From: a virus
Taxonomy: Duplodnaviria; Caudoviricetes
Reading direction: 5' to 3' (one strand)
Virus record (IMG/VR): IMGVR_UViG_3300037067_002413
Span: 1 to 64,000 of that record
DNA: 64,000 bases
The notes under the pieces were generated by a model. The model ran no database searches, had not been told where the DNA came from, and saw only the letters and a list, made by a program, of their open reading frames with translations. A program made the translations under genes and the position numbers. This document shows positions 20,198-64,000 of this stretch, piece by piece (position 1 is the first letter of the stretch; the number at the start of each line of letters is the position of its first letter).

Positions 20198-20728
20198 CTG
20201 ATGGCGTTTCTCAGATTGAGTTCTGTTAATTAGCACGACTTGACTCCGTTGTGGCTGGGTGGTATAGTGAGGTTTGGTAGTTTCGGTAGTTTCTTTAACC
20301 CAGAGAGGATACGTTATGTACCATTTCACATTAGGAGACATGGAGTGCCAGTGTGACACTCCTGACGAATTGCGAAAAATCTGCGAAGGTAGGTCAACCA
20401 GATTCGTCCCCATCTGTTCCAGGGAAACCAGGGATGCCATCCCGGACCCACCCACGGCGAAGGAATCCACCAAGGCCAATACCAGGGAAGTGTTTGGCAT
20501 TGGCAGTGGCACTTTGCCGTATAAGGAACCGTCACGGGAGGAAGTCGTGAAAGAGTTGCCATACGTTGACGAACCTTTGACATGGAAGGTGGCTAATAGG
20601 TGGGCCAAGAAACTTGGCCGAAAGGATGTTTCGCAACTTCGTTCTGACCTGTGTGCCCGTAAGAAAATGGGCAAGTAGGTCATCAATCAAATGGTCGCCG
20701 GCATGAGGCCGGCGACTATTATTTATAG

Positions 20729-20851
20729 TCGCATCGGTAGGGATCGAACCTACGACTACAGGCTCCCTGATAACCCTTGCCTACGACCCGTTGGGTAAAT
20801 GGCGGGAAGGGTAATTTGACCTGCGCCTCTTCCATCTGGGCTACGATGCGA
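20729..20851 (-). ncRNA. tRNA-Y RNA chimera (remote copy)
   Basis: CGCATCG/CGATGCG acceptor, D arm, CAGGT/GCCTG stem, GTAGG-TTCGATC-CCTAC T arm; the anticodon loop holds CCCTT..GCC..TTACCC-aac-GGGT(C)GT.GGC.AAGGG-TTATC. Confidence 0.8.
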
Positions 20852-60567: not shown

Positions 60568-60579
60568 CAAATGGAAAAT

Positions 60580-60652
60580 TGCACTGTAGTTCAGTTGGTA
60601 GAACACCGCACTGTTAATGCGATGGTCCCTGGTTCGAGTCCAGGCGGTGCAG
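60580..60652 (+). tRNA. tRNA-Asn(GTT)
   Basis: TGCACTG/CGGTGCA acceptor, GTTC/GAAC D stem, CT-GTT-AA loop, CCTGG-TTCGAGT-CCAGG T arm; no encoded CCA. Confidence 0.9.
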
Positions 60653-60738
60653 CTTGCGTCGGAAAGGATGGGGACTGCGGCTCTAGCCGTGATGGAGTGC
60701 CTCATCCGTCCGACGTTTTTTCGTCTCCAAAGGTGACT

Positions 60739-61536
60739 ATGGAACGGCTTGCTCGATACGATGTTTATAATGTACCACTTGCTGATATTTGGATTGATCC
60801 AGATTTCAATTGCCGAAATGCCTTTACCTTCCAGTCTGTTAAGGGACTGGCGGATAACATCGAACAAACCGGACTTGAGATTCCAGTTATTCTTCAACGA
60901 CGAGAGGATAGTCAGATAGAATTTTCGGAACCATTCCGTTTGGTTGCCGGTTTTCGTCGTTTGGCAGCCGTGAAGACGTTTCTGCATTGGAATTCTATTC
61001 CTGCTAATGTTCGAGAAAACTTGAATGACCGAGCAGCAGAGATTCTAAATCTAACAGAGAATTTGGAACGCGAAGACCTCAATCCGCTGGAACAGGCACA
61101 AGCACTCACTCGTAGATTTCCGCCTGGAAGTTCGTTACGAACGATCGCTAAGGAGATGCACCGGGACGCGCATTGGGTACACCAACGCCTGCGGATTATG
61201 CAATTGCCAGAGGAGTTGCGTGAGAAGGTAGCGGCTAAGTTGCTCACACTCTTGGACGTAGACGTACTCGTGAAACTTCCACCAGAGGAGCAAATCGAGG
61301 CAGCCAAAGAAATTATTATTGCCAGAGGAAAGCGAACACGAAAACTCAACGTCAATCCGAAATTTCGGCGAAAGTTTAAGTATCGTCGTGGAAAGGAAGA
61401 GATCAATTTTAGAATTGGTCAACTGATGGAGGCGGGATTGAGTGGCCTCGTAACACGATTCGGTGCCTGGTGTGCGGGTTATATCAGTGATGACGAGTTC
61501 GATCAGGATATTTTGCAAGAAACACATAAAATATAG
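60739..61536 (+). CDS. ParB/Spo0J-like protein
   Basis: N.R..F....LA..I...GL..PV; LVAGFRRL.A; EN.EREDLNPLE.A; HTH. Confidence 0.88.
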   Translation: MERLARYDVYNVPLADIWIDPDFNCRNAFTFQSVKGLADNIEQTGLEIPVILQRREDSQIEFSEPFRLVAGFRRLAAVKTFLHWNSIPANVRENLNDRAAEILNLTENLEREDLNPLEQAQALTRRFPPGSSLRTIAKEMHRDAHWVHQRLRIMQLPEELREKVAAKLLTLLDVDVLVKLPPEEQIEAAKEIIIARGKRTRKLNVNPKFRRKFKYRRGKEEINFRIGQLMEAGLSGLVTRFGAWCAGYISDDEFDQDILQETHKI

Positions 61537-61574
61537 ACCAGATTTCACCTATTTTTACGTCGTCCTATTAGAGG
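61533..61574 (+). promoter_or_regulatory. Class II promoter-like element, copy 2 (heads the Y RNA/Ro60 operon)
   Basis: 38/42 identical to the reverse complement of 21496-21537; ends within the first bases of Y unit 1. Confidence 0.75.
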
Positions 61575-61630
61575 GCCGATGTGGATGGGTTATCTTGGAA
61601 CGACTCCCCACCCGCACAAACTTGCCCTCT
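61570..61630 (+). ncRNA. Y RNA-like unit 1 (free-standing)
   Basis: AGAGGGC(C)GA...TTATC...TTGCCCTCT terminal stem with bulged C. Confidence 0.8.
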
Positions 61631-61635
61631 TTTAT

Positions 61636-61760
61636 GGATGCCGTAGTTCAGTTGGTAGAACACTAAAACCGCTGACCAACCTTTGCCCTGCAAGGGCCAA
61701 ATGGAAAGCGTTATCACCTGTTAAGTGAGAGGTCGCGGGTTCGAGTCCCGCCGGTATCCG
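61636..61760 (+). ncRNA. tRNA-Asn(GTT)-Y RNA chimera (unit 2)
   Basis: Full cloverleaf with a ~50-nt insert (61665-61714): CGCT..CCA..TTTGCCC-tgcaa-GGGC(C)AAA TGG..AGCG-TTATC. Confidence 0.8.
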
Positions 61761-61766
61761 TTTTAT

Positions 61767-61893
61767 GTACGTTGTAGCTCAGCGGTAGAGCACAAGTCAA
61801 AGAACCGCTTTCAAGTTTCTTGCCCTATGGGCCGAACTGAAAGCGTTATCAACAAGGAACTTGTGGTCGTGGGTTCGAGTCCCGCCAACGTGC
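61767..61893 (+). ncRNA. tRNA-Y RNA chimera (unit 3)
   Basis: GTACGTTG/CAACGTGC acceptor; CAAGT/ACTTG stem; loop contains CGCTTTCA..CTTGCCC-tat-GGGC(C)GA..TGAAAGCG-TTATC. Confidence 0.8.
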
Positions 61894-61896
61894 TTT

Positions 61897-61993
61897 GGGT
61901 GTGAAGCTCAATTGGTTGAGCACCCGTTTTCACCATTAACTCGAAAGGGTCGAATGAAAATGGTTATCGTAGGTTCGAGTCCTATCGCACCCG
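61897..61993 (+). ncRNA. tRNA-Y RNA chimera (unit 4)
   Basis: GGGTGTG/CGCACCC acceptor; anticodon arm replaced by CCGTTTTCA..ACTC-gaaa-GGGT(C)GA.TGAAAATGG; TTATC forms the variable loop. Confidence 0.75.
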
Positions 61994-61995
61994 CT

Positions 61996-62059
61996 CCGGG
62001 CCGATGCTGATTGGTTATCACATCTTTATTGTCAAACACCAATCGCACACCTTGCCCGG
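61996..62059 (+). ncRNA. Y RNA-like unit 5
   Basis: CCGGGC(C)GA TGC.GATTGG TTATC ... CCAATC GCA ... TTGCCCGG. Confidence 0.8.
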
Positions 62060-62066
62060 CAATATA

Positions 62067-62159
62067 CTTGGACCGTGGAAGTTCGTTTATTGACGGCCAT
62101 TTCCGAAGTTGTACTTTAGAAATGGCCGCCCATAACGATTGTCCAACTTTTTGTCCAAG
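62067..62159 (+). ncRNA. Y RNA-like unit 6, with internal hairpin
   Basis: CTTGGAC(C)GT...TTATT...TTGTCCAAG; inner CGGCCATTTC/GAAATGGCCG. Confidence 0.7.
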
Positions 62160-62169
62160 CCTTGGATAT

Positions 62170-62244
62170 TTGGGCCGTCGCTGAATCCGTTATCTATGTC
62201 ACTCATAATGACTCCAGTATCCCGGACCAGCACCTTTTGCCTGA
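62170..62244 (+). ncRNA. Y RNA-like unit 7
   Basis: TTGGGC(C)GT.GCTG..TCCG TTATC ... CGGA.CAGC ... TTGCCTGA. Confidence 0.7.
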
Positions 62245-62257
62245 GTCATTGAATGTG

Positions 62258-62314
62258 TGGGCCGACGTTCGTGGGTTATCAGGCATAAGACACCCACGGC
62301 AATTTTCTAGCCTA
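62258..62314 (+). ncRNA. Y RNA-like unit 8 (weaker terminal stem)
   Basis: TGGGC(C)GA..TTCGTGGG TTATC ... CCCACGG ... TAGCCTA. Confidence 0.65.
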
Positions 62315-62329
62315 ACCTTTGGAGAAAAC

Positions 62330-63928
62330 ATGAAGACTTTAGCCAAGCACGTTTCAGTTCGGATTACTCCGCAGACTCGACCGATTCCTGGAAAGAATCA
62401 AGAGCAGAACAACGCAGGTGGGTATACGTTCGTTCTGGATTGTTGGGGACGACTTCAACGGTTTTTGATTCTCGGTTCCGAGGGCGGGACGTATTATGTC
62501 GGCGAACAAAAGTTGACGGAACAAAATGCGTCCGCCGTTGCTGAATGTGGTGAAGAAGACGCGGCCAAAGCCGTGGAGATGATCGCCTCGATCAGCGAAT
62601 CGGGCCGTGCTCCAAAGAATGATTCTGCTATTTTCGCCCTGGCACTTTTGGCGAGTCAGGCGGACGATACTGTTCGACGACTGGCATTGGCTGCGTTGCC
62701 GCGTGTTTGCCGCACGGCTACCCATTTGTTCCAATTCGTTGCGAACTGCAAGGAACTGCGCGGTTGGGGCCGTGGATTGCGTGAGGCGGTCGCCGGCTGG
62801 TACAACGAGAAGCCGGTTGACAAACTCGCCTATCAGGTGACGAAATACAGGAACCGTGCCGGCTACACGCATCGGGATATTCTCCGGCTTAGTCATCCGA
62901 AGACGGGCGATTACGAACGAAACAATCTATACCGTTGGATTACGAAGGGGACTCTCCCAGACGAAATCACGGTTGCGTTTAATCCGTTGGCTTTGATTTT
63001 TGGCTTGGAAGCAGCAAATGCTCTTTTGCCTACCGACGTGAAGGGGATGATCGGACTGATCGAACTTTACGGGTTGACTTTGGAGCATGTGCCCAATCAT
63101 TTCCTTAGCAGCCCGGCTGTATGGGAAGCCTTGCTTCCGAATCTGCCGCCCACGGCAATGATCCGAAATCTGGGTAAGATGACCAGCGTCGGCCTTCTGA
63201 AACCACTATCGGTATCTGCGAATATGGTTTGCAACGTGCTGACCAATCCCGATCGCCTTCGTGGTGCTCGCGTGCATCCACTATCCGTCTTGATTGCCAC
63301 CGACACATACAGTCAAGGCCACGGCGTCAAGGGGTCGCTGACATGGCAGCCGGTGGGACAAATCAGGGACGCCCTTGAGGAAGCATTTTATTCTGCCTTT
63401 GACGCCGTGGAGTTGACGGGTAAACGACATTTGTTGAGTCTGGATGTGTCCGGTTCGATGGGCTGGTCGTTACTTGCCAACACTAGATTGAGTGCTGCCA
63501 AGGCCGCCGCTTGCATGGCGATGGTTACGCATCGACTTGAGCCGCAAACTCATGTGATGGGTTTCTCCAACGATCTGGTTCCGATCGACATTTCCAAGAA
63601 GGAACGTCTCGATGCCTTGGTAACCAAGATTGGTCGTATTCCGATGGGCGGAACTGATTGTAGTCTGCCCATGCTCTACGCGGCTCAACAGAAGTTGGAC
63701 GTGGATGCCTTTGTGGTATACACGGATAACGAGACTTGGGGTGGGAAGATTCACCCCATTCAAGCTCTCAAGATTTACCGTCAAGCGAGCGGCATCAACG
63801 CCAAGTTGATTGTCGTCGGAATGACCGCCAGCCAGTTCACGATCGCCGATCCTTCTGATGCCGGCATGTTGGACGTTGTTGGTTTTGACGCTTCCTGCCC
63901 AGCCGTAATGGCTGATTTCGTTCGTTGA
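62330..63928 (+). CDS. rsr: Ro60 / TROVE-domain RNA-binding protein
   Basis: N.AGGY.F....W..L.RFLILGSEGGTYY; KY.NR.G..H.D.LRL.HP; AMIRNLGKMT; vWA MIDAS DVSGSM, GGTD, YTDNETW; GGAG RBS at 62321. Confidence 0.95.
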   Translation: MKTLAKHVSVRITPQTRPIPGKNQEQNNAGGYTFVLDCWGRLQRFLILGSEGGTYYVGEQKLTEQNASAVAECGEEDAAKAVEMIASISESGRAPKNDSAIFALALLASQADDTVRRLALAALPRVCRTATHLFQFVANCKELRGWGRGLREAVAGWYNEKPVDKLAYQVTKYRNRAGYTHRDILRLSHPKTGDYERNNLYRWITKGTLPDEITVAFNPLALIFGLEAANALLPTDVKGMIGLIELYGLTLEHVPNHFLSSPAVWEALLPNLPPTAMIRNLGKMTSVGLLKPLSVSANMVCNVLTNPDRLRGARVHPLSVLIATDTYSQGHGVKGSLTWQPVGQIRDALEEAFYSAFDAVELTGKRHLLSLDVSGSMGWSLLANTRLSAAKAAACMAMVTHRLEPQTHVMGFSNDLVPIDISKKERLDALVTKIGRIPMGGTDCSLPMLYAAQQKLDVDAFVVYTDNETWGGKIHPIQALKIYRQASGINAKLIVVGMTASQFTIADPSDAGMLDVVGFDASCPAVMADFVR

Positions 63929-64000
63929 TTTAGCGGGGCTTCGGTGTGTGCAAAAGCACTGAACCTATAACCGCACGGTTGATGACTAGGACTGCCTCAG

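What the first reader, a model, noticed from the sequence alone, without database searches (positions are those of the whole stretch)
61570..63928. Phage Ro60 operon preceded by a tandem array of Y RNA modules
Seen: the 750 bp before the Ro60 ATG holds back-to-back units sharing one module: a GGGC-C-GA / TTGCCC helix with a single bulged C, a second 7-10 bp helix, then TTATC. Stem sequences differ between units but pairing is kept (GGGC/GCCC, GGAC/GTCC, GGGT/ACTC), i.e. covariation inside one genome. Seven units are clear (four free-standing at 61570, 61996, 62067 and 62170; three tRNA-embedded) and an eighth, weaker free-standing unit is at 62258. Established: Ro60 binds Y RNAs at a bulged-C terminal helix, and bacterial Y RNA genes usually sit beside the Ro60 gene in one or two copies. 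Inference: this phage encodes a diversified Y RNA repertoire with a constant Ro60 handle and variable cargo domains, which could direct Ro60 to different partners (PNPase, tRNA enzymes, host defence nucleases).
Basis: partly seen in the sequence, partly recalled or inferred. Interest (0 to 1): 0.95.

Follow-up and report, generated by a model that had tools for sequence, protein, structure and literature searches.

The report
Phage Y RNA gene cluster beside Ro60
A 146-kb phage carries eight small RNA genes packed in front of its Ro60 gene, all sharing the RNA "handle" that Ro60 proteins grip; three of them are ordinary-looking tRNAs with that handle grafted into the anticodon arm, a layout I found in no searchable paper.

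Summary
The 793-nt gap between a ParB-like gene and a canonical Ro60 gene (TROVE + vWA_Ro60) holds eight back-to-back units, 2-21 nt apart. Seven share the handle strand, a 10-11 nt spacer and UUAUC.

- **Open hairpins:** a covariance model built from relatives finds four in the window (62, 58, 23 and 17 bits) and nothing else in 64 kb.
- **tRNA-framed units:** three are normally connected tRNA frames that carry the handle as a closed hairpin.
- **Ninth unit:** it lies at 20728-20850 on the minus strand.

The module is general. In 160 phage and bacterial Ro60 loci the model gives 221 hits, all on the Ro60 strand, with strong covariation. Another 70 distinct tRNA-framed units occur there.

Y RNAs beside Ro60 are known (YrlA; Thermus phage Yrl1/Yrl2). 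New here are the copy number, the UUAUC architecture otherwise reported for animal Y RNAs, and the un-permuted tRNA frame with a loop-closed Ro60 helix. Expression, processing and Ro60 binding are untested, because no RNA data exist.

This scan has already reported related arrays of handle-bearing small RNAs beside Ro60-like genes on other DNA.

Verdict: a real new variant of a known kind.

The parts
61570..61630 (+). U1: open minimal Y RNA. Lower stem with bulged C and G.U, a 10-position upper stem, then UUAUC and a loop.
   Evidence: R1 62 bits (a seed sequence). Rfam sbRNA model RF01656 27.2 bits, E 0.013. MFE fold as predicted. Ortholog in L001 with compensatory changes.
61636..61760 (+). 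Unit A: tRNA-Asn(GUU) frame with a 50-nt closed Y arm (61665-61714) inserted in the 5' strand of the anticodon stem. The anticodon loop CUGUUAA is kept.
   Evidence: Removing 61665-61714 gives a perfect cloverleaf, and 21 nt of the D-arm region are identical to the phage tRNA-Asn. Acceptor pairing 7/7. Handle pairing 6/6.
61768..61893 (+). Unit B: tRNA frame in which the Y arm replaces the anticodon loop. The anticodon stem is kept.
   Evidence: Rfam tRNA 45 bits with a 60-nt insert. Acceptor 7/7. Handle 6/6. Orthologs in L001 and L002 with compensatory changes in the acceptor and anticodon stems.
61897..61993 (+). Unit C: tRNA frame in which the Y arm replaces the whole anticodon arm. UUAUC sits where the variable region would be.
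   Evidence: Rfam tRNA 43 bits, above the gathering score. Handle GGGU[C]GA/UU[A]ACUC 6/6. Ortholog in L003, 85.5% identity over 83 nt. Absent from L001 and L002.
61995..62060 (+). U5: open minimal Y RNA.
   Evidence: R1 58.1 bits (a seed sequence). Rfam RF01656 20.5 bits. Orthologs in L001 and L002.
62067..62147 (+). U6: divergent candidate. GGAC[C]G/UUGUCC lower stem, UUAUU, and a long extra 9-bp stem.
   Evidence: MFE fold. R1 only 1.3 bits with filters off. No sequence ortholog in 160 loci. The GGAC/GUCC handle variant does occur in relatives.
62169..62245 (+). U7: open Y RNA with a larger loop and a slightly degenerate handle.
   Evidence: R1 17.4 bits, E 0.03 over 64 kb and 4.6e-4 over 1 kb. 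No sequence ortholog.
62256..62316 (+). U8: open Y RNA ending 13 nt before the Ro60 start codon. The handle has a G-A mismatch in place of G.U.
   Evidence: R1 23.1 bits, E 1e-3. Rfam Y_RNA RF00019 19.5 bits, E 0.015. Orthologs in L001 and L002.
62330..63928 (+). Ro60 gene (TROVE + vWA). GGAG ribosome-binding site at 62321-62324.
   Evidence: Pfam. PDB sequence search: human RO60 1.2e-125, Xenopus Ro60 5.8e-122, Deinococcus Rsr 3.7e-121, Thermus phage phiRo60 2.4e-12.
63933..64000 (+). 5' part of a ~135-nt conserved structured RNA or terminator directly after Ro60. It runs past the window end to about 64070.
   Evidence: 91% identity in L001 and 81% in L002. 42 predicted pairs, 13 with compensatory changes, followed by a U-run. 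No Rfam match.
20728..20850 (-). Ninth module: a lone tRNA-framed closed Y unit (geometry as unit B), 41 kb from Ro60 on the other strand.
   Evidence: Aragorn with introns allowed, and a pattern hit at 20789. Sequence and fold.
60580..60653 (+). Ordinary phage tRNA-Asn(GUU), the likely relative of unit A.
   Evidence: Aragorn. Rfam tRNA 67 bits. D-arm region identical to unit A.

Best explanation
The intergenic region is a cluster of Y RNA genes serving the phage's own Ro60. It holds four well-supported open hairpin Y RNAs (U1, U5, U7, U8), one doubtful one (U6) and three tRNA-framed Y RNAs (A, B, C).

Shown here:
- Every unit carries the conserved bulged helix (5' GGGCCGA, unpaired C, G.U then A-U) followed by a second helix and UUAUC.
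- This module is under structural selection across phage and bacterial Ro60 loci.
- It is always on the Ro60 strand.

Inferred:
- The units are made as one transcript, probably continuing into the Ro60 mRNA.
- The three tRNA frames, each with its own 7-bp acceptor stem, are cut by RNase P and 3'-end enzymes. That would also release the tightly abutting minimal Y RNAs.
- Ro60 binds each handle.
- The variable parts give Ro60 particles different partners: a loop beginning with the conserved UUAUC in the minimal RNAs, and tRNA bodies in the framed ones, one with an intact Asn anticodon arm.
- The most likely roles are recruiting host exoribonuclease (as shown in vitro for Thermus phage phiRo60/Yrl with PNPase) and engaging tRNA-directed enzymes or nucleases.
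For: Ro60 identity.

Units, spacing and folds.

Model R1:
- Four hits in the 793-nt gap and none elsewhere in the window.
- 117 hits at E <= 0.01, all on the + strand: 115 in 53 of 80 phage loci plus U1 and U5. Of those loci 36 have two or more hits and L037 has eight in a row.
- 106 hits, all on the + strand, in bacterial loci.

Covariation:
- Lower stem 99.6% paired in the seed alignment.
- On 111 distinct sequences, 85.3% of cells are paired against 45% or less when partners are slid. 17 of 18 pairs carry compensatory changes and 0 of 500 shuffles reach the score.

tRNA frames:
- Rfam tRNA 45 and 43 bits for B and C. Aragorn calls A a tRNA-Asn with a 50-nt insert.
- Intra-unit acceptor pairing is 7/7. 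Pairing across neighbouring units gives 5 and 3 of 7.
- Compensatory changes are seen among orthologs.
- 73 distinct closed units (the window's three included) all lie on the Ro60 strand. Cognate helix-2 duplex energy is -10.3 against -6.4 kcal/mol for non-cognate pairs, p 1e-22.

Published precedents:
- Two Y-like RNAs upstream of phiRo60 that bind it and host PNPase (PMC12135203).
Against: - There is no expression, processing or binding evidence of any kind.
- No sigma-70-like promoter was found on the + strand.
- U6 fails the family model.
- U7 and U8 have imperfect handles and modest scores.
- Rfam Y_RNA (19.5 against 38 bits), YrlA (28.7 against 69) and sbRNA (27.2 against 38) all stay under their gathering scores.
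- In every characterised Y RNA the Ro60-binding stem is formed by the 5' and 3' ends (bioRxiv 10.1101/312249). Whether Ro60 accepts a loop-closed handle is unknown.
Confidence: 0.75

Rival explanations
1. The units are not separate RNAs. They are cis-acting Ro60-binding sites in a long 5' leader of the Ro60 mRNA, used for autoregulation of Ro60 synthesis.
For: - No internal promoter or terminator is predicted within the array.
- U8 ends 13 nt before the start codon, just upstream of the GGAG site, and is conserved in L001 and L002.
- In many loci the last unit ends 20-60 nt before Ro60.
Against: - In other loci the arrays lie downstream of Ro60 (L014, L017, L023, L035).
- One unit of this genome lies 41 kb away on the other strand.
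- tRNA frames with 7-bp acceptor stems are expected to be cut out by RNase P.
- Characterised Y RNAs upstream of Rsr are processed from precursors (PMC4201824).
- A regulatory role for U8 alone is not excluded.
Confidence: 0.1
2. Units A, B and C are tRNA genes interrupted by an intron-like insertion that is removed to give working tRNAs. The likeness to Y RNA would then be incidental.
For:
- Deleting 61665-61714 restores a perfect cloverleaf.
Against: - B and C have no anticodon loop once the arm is removed.
- The 'insert' carries the same conserved handle, second helix and UUAUC as the free Y RNAs, with covariation.
- These units are found on the Ro60 strand in 48 of 160 Ro60 loci.
- The insertion point is inside a stem. 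A 50-nt insert is also far smaller than bacterial group I tRNA introns (general knowledge, not tested here).
Confidence: 0.05
3. Only part of the array is functional. U6, and perhaps U7, are decaying duplicates or chance look-alikes in a fast-changing spacer.
For: - U6 scores 1.3 bits.
- U6 and U7 have no sequence ortholog in any of 160 loci.
- The segment between U5 and U8 is the one part of the array that does not align with L001 or L002.
Against: - U7 still reaches E 4.6e-4 within the region.
- U6 keeps the 7 + 10 + 5 spacing, the bulged C and a compensated GGAC/GUCC stem that also occurs in relatives.
Confidence: 0.3

Closest known systems
YrlA-type bacterial and phage Y RNAs with Rsr/Ro60 (Rfam RF02553; Chen et al. 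2014, PMC4201824; Wang et al. 2018, bioRxiv 10.1101/312249)
   Same: - Encoded beside Ro60 on the same strand.
- Ro60-type handle related to GNCGAAN0-1G.
- tRNA-like D arm, T arm and acceptor stem, with the Ro60 helix in the anticodon-arm position.
- Open YrlA-like forms occur in relatives of this phage (for example L007 2851-2982 and L017 5173-5295).
   Different: - Units A-C have the opposite connectivity. The ends are at a 7-bp acceptor stem and the Ro60 helix is closed by a 3-5-nt loop, whereas YrlA is a circularly permuted tRNA with a closed acceptor stem and no free CCA end.
- Unit A keeps a complete anticodon arm.
- The Rfam score is 28.7 against 69 bits, and that hit spans two neighbouring units.
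- Chen et al. discarded hits overlapping annotated tandem tRNA genes, so such units could have been missed.
Thermus phage phiLo phiRo60 with Yrl1 and Yrl2 (PMC12135203)
   Same: - Phage-encoded Ro60 with Y-like RNAs directly upstream.
- In that system, binding to Ro60 and ternary complexes with host PNPase were shown in vitro.
   Different: - Two RNAs there, against eight to nine here.
- That protein is only distantly related to this one (E 2.4e-12, against 1e-121 to 1e-125 for Rsr and animal Ro60).
- No tRNA-framed units were reported.
Deinococcus radiodurans Yrn1/Yrn2 locus (PMC4201824)
   Same: [quoted passage not shown]
   Different: - Two confirmed Y RNAs and a separate ordinary tRNA, rather than tRNAs that carry the handle themselves.
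- Yrn1 has the Ro60 stem at the RNA ends.
Vertebrate Y RNAs and nematode stem-bulge RNAs (Rfam RF00019, RF01656; Kowalski and Krude 2015, PMC4726728)
   Same: - Lower stem with a bulged C.
- Upper stem of about 10 bp.
- UUAUC at the start of the loop.
- The Rfam sbRNA consensus aligns with U1 through both stems and UUAUC.
   Different: - Scores stay below the gathering thresholds (27.2 against 38; 19.5 against 38).
- The RNAs are 55-65 nt with short loops.
- They are phage or bacterial genes in operons, not RNA polymerase III genes.
- Whether the likeness is homology or convergence on Ro60 contacts is not settled.

Membership tests
Y RNA (Ro60-bound small RNA class) | Encoded next to, and on the same strand as, a Ro60/Rsr gene (the rule in bacteria) | tested here: met
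   Eight units lie within 760 nt upstream of Ro60 on the + strand. All 223 R1 hits (117 in the phage search, the window included, and 106 in the bacterial search) are on the Ro60 strand.
Y RNA (Ro60-bound small RNA class) | Conserved helix with 5' strand GGNCCGA, a single bulged C and a flanking G.U | tested here: met
   The bulged C is invariant. G.U is present in 33 of 36 and A-U in 36 of 36 seed sequences, and the lower stem is 99.6% paired. On 111 sequences it is 95% paired, with 7 of 8 pairs compensated. U8 and C deviate by one mismatch or an extra bulge.
Y RNA (Ro60-bound small RNA class) | The Ro60-binding stem is formed by the RNA's 5' and 3' ends | tested here: inconclusive
   Predicted for U1, U5, U7 and U8. 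Not so for A, B and C, where the helix is closed by a loop. True RNA ends are unknown.
Y RNA (Ro60-bound small RNA class) | Physically bound to Ro60 and dependent on it for stability | not testable with these tools
   No RNA or binding data are available. The look-up of sequencing runs listed no RNA holder.
Rfam Y_RNA RF00019 | Score at or above the gathering threshold (38 bits) | tested here: not met
   The best hit is U8 at 19.5 bits, E 0.015.
YrlA (Rfam RF02553) | Score at or above the gathering threshold (69 bits) | tested here: not met
   28.7 and 28.1 bits. The first hit runs from the 3' half of unit A into the 5' half of unit B.
YrlA (Rfam RF02553) | Circularly permuted tRNA: ends at the Ro60 stem, acceptor stem closed by a loop, no free CCA end | tested here: not met
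   A, B and C each have their own 7/7-paired acceptor stem at the unit ends. The acceptor-like pairing across units that the YrlA register would need gives only 5 and 3 of 7 pairs.
YrlA (Rfam RF02553) | tRNA-like D and T arms | tested here: met
   The Rfam tRNA model aligns the D and T arms of B and C at 45 and 43 bits. The D arm of A is identical to that of the phage tRNA-Asn.
Nematode sbRNA / animal Y RNA architecture | UUAUC directly after a ~10-bp upper stem | tested here: met
   Present in 7 of 8 units (U6 has UUAUU). UUA and the final C are invariant in the 36-sequence alignment, and the fourth position is U in at least 90%.
Nematode sbRNA (Rfam RF01656) | Score at or above the gathering threshold (38 bits) | tested here: not met
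   U1 scores 27.2 bits and U5 scores 20.5 bits.
tRNA (Rfam RF00005) | Cloverleaf scoring above the gathering threshold (29 bits) | tested here: met
   B scores 45 bits and C 43 bits, with 60- and 29-nt inserts. A is found only by Aragorn with introns allowed.
tRNA (Rfam RF00005) | A 7-nt anticodon loop usable for decoding | tested here: not met
   Only A keeps such a loop (CUGUUAA), and there a 50-nt arm projects from the anticodon stem. B and C have none.

The most novel reading that the evidence does not exclude
The tRNA-framed units are matured like tRNAs: RNase P cleavage, CCA addition, and perhaps even charging of unit A by AsnRS. They would then act as Ro60-tagged stand-ins for particular tRNAs. 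Ro60, with its nuclease or repair partners, would be brought to enzymes that read specific anticodon loops, such as host anticodon nucleases used in anti-phage defence. The array would then be a counter-defence set of tRNA decoys or sensors.

In addition, the minimal units would be true homologues of animal Y and stem-bulge RNAs. That would mean the RNA travelled together with Ro60 between bacteria or phages and animals.
Probability: 0.15. Interest if true: 0.85.

Novelty: new variant of a known kind. Interest (0 to 1): 0.6.

Why it matters
Ro60/Y RNA particles are conserved from bacteria to humans and are a major lupus autoantigen, yet what the variable part of a Y RNA does is known in only a few cases.

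- **Repertoire:** this locus and the roughly 160 related loci show that Ro60 genes often come with a whole set of Y RNAs.
- **Topology:** one large class breaks the stated rule that the Ro60 helix is made by the RNA ends. It is a normally connected tRNA, often with a recognisable anticodon loop (Asn most often), with the Ro60 helix grafted on.
- **A direct test:** does Ro60 act on, or through, specific tRNAs? In phages, is this part of the contest over tRNA cleavage?
- **Animal-type architecture:** lower stem, 10-bp upper stem and UUAUC appear in phage and bacterial RNAs. This bears on the published view that bacterial Y RNAs are unrelated to animal ones.

Tried and rejected
- **Rfam gathering scan of the window.** It found only tRNA hits and no Y family.
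- **RNAalifold on the MAFFT alignment.** It recovered only the lower stem, so I wrote the second helix by hand and checked it with slid-partner controls.
- **YrlA register.** This reading has the RNA start at the handle of unit n and end at the handle of unit n+1, as the Rfam hit at 61693-61829 suggests. I rejected it for this window. The acceptor-like pairing across units is 5 and 3 of 7, against 7 of 7 within units. In bacterial loci the tRNA-framed units also stand apart from each other. In L002 the cross-unit pairing is 6 of 7, so that register is not excluded everywhere.
- **Promoter and terminator scan.** It gave no + strand promoter and nothing beyond chance.
- **Sequencing-run look-up.** No RNA holder was listed. 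I did not use read laying because only DNA contigs were on offer.
- **Literature limits.** The supplements of Chen et al. 2014 and the 2020 Annual Review on bacterial Ro60 are not held. I therefore could not check whether tRNA-framed units appear in those tables.
- **Second covariance model.** I did not build one for the closed arm, because MAFFT could not keep the 3' strand in register. I scored the handle and second helix with a script instead.
Full report
**Setting.** The window is the first 64 kb of a 145,969-bp IMG/VR virus record, linear and rated 100% complete by CheckV. It encodes terminase, portal, major head and tape-measure proteins. DNA runs holding the stretch come from landfill and groundwater metagenomes, and no RNA run is listed.

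The ORF at 62330-63928 is a canonical Ro60, with Pfam vWA_Ro60 at 6.9e-67 and TROVE at 6.6e-45. It is as close to human and Xenopus Ro60 and to Deinococcus Rsr (E 1e-121 to 1e-125) as these searches can show. It is only distantly related to the solved Thermus phage phiRo60 (2.4e-12).

Upstream lie an ordinary tRNA-Asn (60580-60653) and a ParB-like gene ending at 61536. Downstream come a conserved structured element, a family A DNA polymerase, phosphoesterases, a DNA ligase and an RNA ligase (PF09414) about 12 kb away.

**The observation.** The 793-nt gap holds eight units separated by only 2-21 nt. Seven read GGG[C/U]C[G/A]N, then 10 or 11 nt, then UUAUC. A looser version of this pattern matches only four other places on the + strand and three on the - strand of the 146-kb genome. 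One of those three is a further real unit.

Minimum-energy folds give, for U1 and U5, a lower stem, an unpaired C, a second helix of about 10 positions and a loop. Units A, B and C fold as cloverleaf frames with an extra long arm.

**Is it more than chance?** I fetched 80 phage loci with Ro60 relatives of 42-80% identity. From them I aligned 34 minimal units with U1 and U5.
- The lower stem is 99.6% paired, with up to five pair types at one position, an invariant bulged C, G.U in 33 of 36 and A-U in 36 of 36.
- A covariance model of this alignment (R1) finds four places in the whole window on both strands, all inside the gap. They are U1 and U5 (seeds), U8 at 23.1 bits and U7 at 17.4 bits.
- U6 scores only 1.3 bits even with filters off.
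- Across the 80 phage loci plus the window there are 117 hits at E <= 0.01, every one on the Ro60 strand. They fall in 53 loci, 36 of them with two or more, and one locus (L037) has eight in a row.
- On the resulting alignment of 111 distinct sequences, 85.3% of cells are paired against 35-45% when partners are slid. 17 of 18 pairs carry compensatory changes, and no shuffle of 500 reaches the covariation score. That alignment was fitted to the model, which favours the structure. The slid controls and the MAFFT-only result point the same way.
- In 80 bacterial loci, mostly MAGs of Myxococcota, Verrucomicrobiota, Armatimonadota and a Thermoguttaceae contig at 63% identity, the model gives 106 more hits, again all on the Ro60 strand.

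So the module is a general companion of Ro60, not a feature of this phage alone.

**The tRNA-framed units.** The Rfam tRNA model matches B (45 bits, 60-nt insert) and C (43 bits, 29-nt insert).

Each unit has its own acceptor stem with 7 of 7 pairs. In all three the Ro60 handle is reversed in order: the 3' strand comes first, then a 3-5-nt loop, then the 5' strand, the second helix and UUAUC. It is therefore a closed hairpin.

The three graft geometries differ:
- In A the arm leaves the 5' strand of the anticodon stem after two pairs. Removing 61665-61714 leaves a perfect tRNA-Asn cloverleaf whose 21-nt D-arm region is identical to the phage's own tRNA-Asn.
- In B the arm replaces the anticodon loop.
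- In C it replaces the whole anticodon arm.

The Rfam YrlA model gives a weak hit (28.7 bits against a threshold of 69) that starts in A and ends in B. That is what one expects if these units are the circular permutation of YrlA. In this window the cross-unit acceptor pairing that register needs is poor (5 and 3 of 7), so the tRNA register is the real one here.

Orthologs in L001 and L002 show the classical compensatory series in the acceptor stems (U-A, U.G, C-G in A; UU/AA to CC/GG in B) and in the anticodon stem of B.

A script that looks for a T arm, a 7/7 acceptor stem, a D stem and an internal Y motif finds 73 distinct units of 96-199 nt in the 160 loci plus the window.
- All 73 are on the Ro60 strand.
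- 67 of them have at least 5 of 6 handle pairs.
- The second helix is much more complementary within a unit than between units (-10.3 against -6.4 kcal/mol, p 1e-22).
- Forty keep a 7-nt loop with U33 and R37. Asn (GUU) is the commonest reading (8), followed by Gly (UCC, 4) and some twenty others.

A ninth unit of the B type stands alone at 20728-20850 on the minus strand.

**Synteny.** The order U1-A-B-(C)-U5-variable-U8-Ro60 is shared with L001 and L002. C is absent there but has an ortholog in L003. U6 and U7 lie in the variable segment and have no sequence orthologs. U8, with its imperfect handle, is conserved and ends just before the ribosome-binding site.

**What is known.**
- Chen et al. 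2014 (PMC4201824) found YrlA-like RNAs beside Ro60 in 254 bacteria and 22 phages and defined the GNCGAAN0-1G motif. [quoted passage not shown] They also discarded hits overlapping annotated tandem tRNA genes.
- Wang et al. 2018 (bioRxiv 10.1101/312249) state that all characterised Y RNAs have the Ro60 site in a stem formed by the 5' and 3' ends. They also state that YrlA resembles a circularly permuted tRNA with a closed acceptor stem and no free CCA end.
- A 2025 paper (PMC12135203) describes two Y-like RNAs upstream of a Thermus phage Ro60 that bind it and host PNPase.
- Kowalski and Krude 2015 (PMC4726728) report UUAUC as conserved in nematode stem-bulge and vertebrate Y RNAs, and call bacterial Y RNAs not homologous to the vertebrate clades.

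In six full-text searches I found no description of tRNA-framed, loop-closed Y RNAs or of arrays this large. Two key sources were not held, so prior description cannot be excluded.

This scan has already reported arrays of handle-bearing small RNAs beside Ro60-like genes in other genomes. I did not test those.

**How it most likely works.**
- Shown: a conserved, covarying Ro60-type handle on eight or nine RNAs of one phage, always co-oriented with Ro60 across many genomes, and three or four of them built on intact tRNA frames.
- Inferred from named precedents: one precursor transcript, excision of the tRNA frames by RNase P and 3'-end enzymes that also frees the abutting minimal RNAs, and Ro60 binding to each handle.
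- Speculative: which partners the variable parts recruit. The PNPase precedent and the anticodon loops point to exoribonucleases and to tRNA-directed enzymes or nucleases.

**Verdict.** The finding is real and is a new variant of a known kind. The array as such is an expansion of a known arrangement. The un-permuted tRNA frame with a closed Ro60 helix and the animal-type UUAUC architecture are the parts a specialist would find surprising.

Noticed in passing
window 20728-20850 (- strand): A lone tRNA-framed Y unit. It has a 7-bp acceptor stem, D and T arms, and a closed GGGU[C]GU/UUUACCC handle with UUAUC in place of the anticodon loop. It lies 41 kb from Ro60 on the opposite strand, in an intergenic gap.
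   Followed up: partly
window 63933-64000, continuing to about 64070 (L085:29-180): A structured RNA of about 135 nt directly after the Ro60 stop codon. It is 91% identical in L001 and 81% in L002, and most pairs of its 15-bp closing helix carry compensatory changes in L002. It has conserved internal loops and a U-run after it, and no Rfam match. It may be a large terminator or a further partner RNA of the operon.
   Followed up: partly
L089:4592-6037, L093:4346-5033, L101:5126-5567 (bacterial MAG loci): Myxobacterial Ro60 loci carry three to five tRNA-framed Y units downstream of Ro60. Within one locus the acceptor stems are nearly identical (for example GCAGACG three times in L101). This suggests concerted evolution or a shared recognition element.
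   Followed up: partly
L037:2106-2911; L023:5248-5972: L037 has eight contiguous model hits upstream of Ro60, mixing minimal and open YrlA-like forms. L023 alternates minimal and tRNA-framed units (seven in all) downstream of Ro60.
   Followed up: partly
window 60571-60653: The longest ORF for the ParB-like protein (start 60571) overlaps the tRNA-Asn gene (60580-60653). The ParB domains begin at residue 69, so the true start is probably downstream of the tRNA.
   Followed up: no
window 61537-61569 and L001:2290-2306: The 33 nt between the ParB-like stop codon and U1 contain a stretch conserved in L001 (UUUACGUCGUC-N-UA-N-UAG) that ends right at the first paired base of U1. It may be a phage promoter or a processing signal. 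The sigma-70 scan did not flag it.
   Followed up: no
L085:12194-13282 (genome 76093-77181): An RNA ligase (PF09414, 7.1e-19) with a PHA02142-type OB fold lies 12 kb downstream of Ro60, along with a metallophosphoesterase and a 5' nucleotidase-like gene. This fits an RNA-repair setting but is not adjacent to Ro60.
   Followed up: partly
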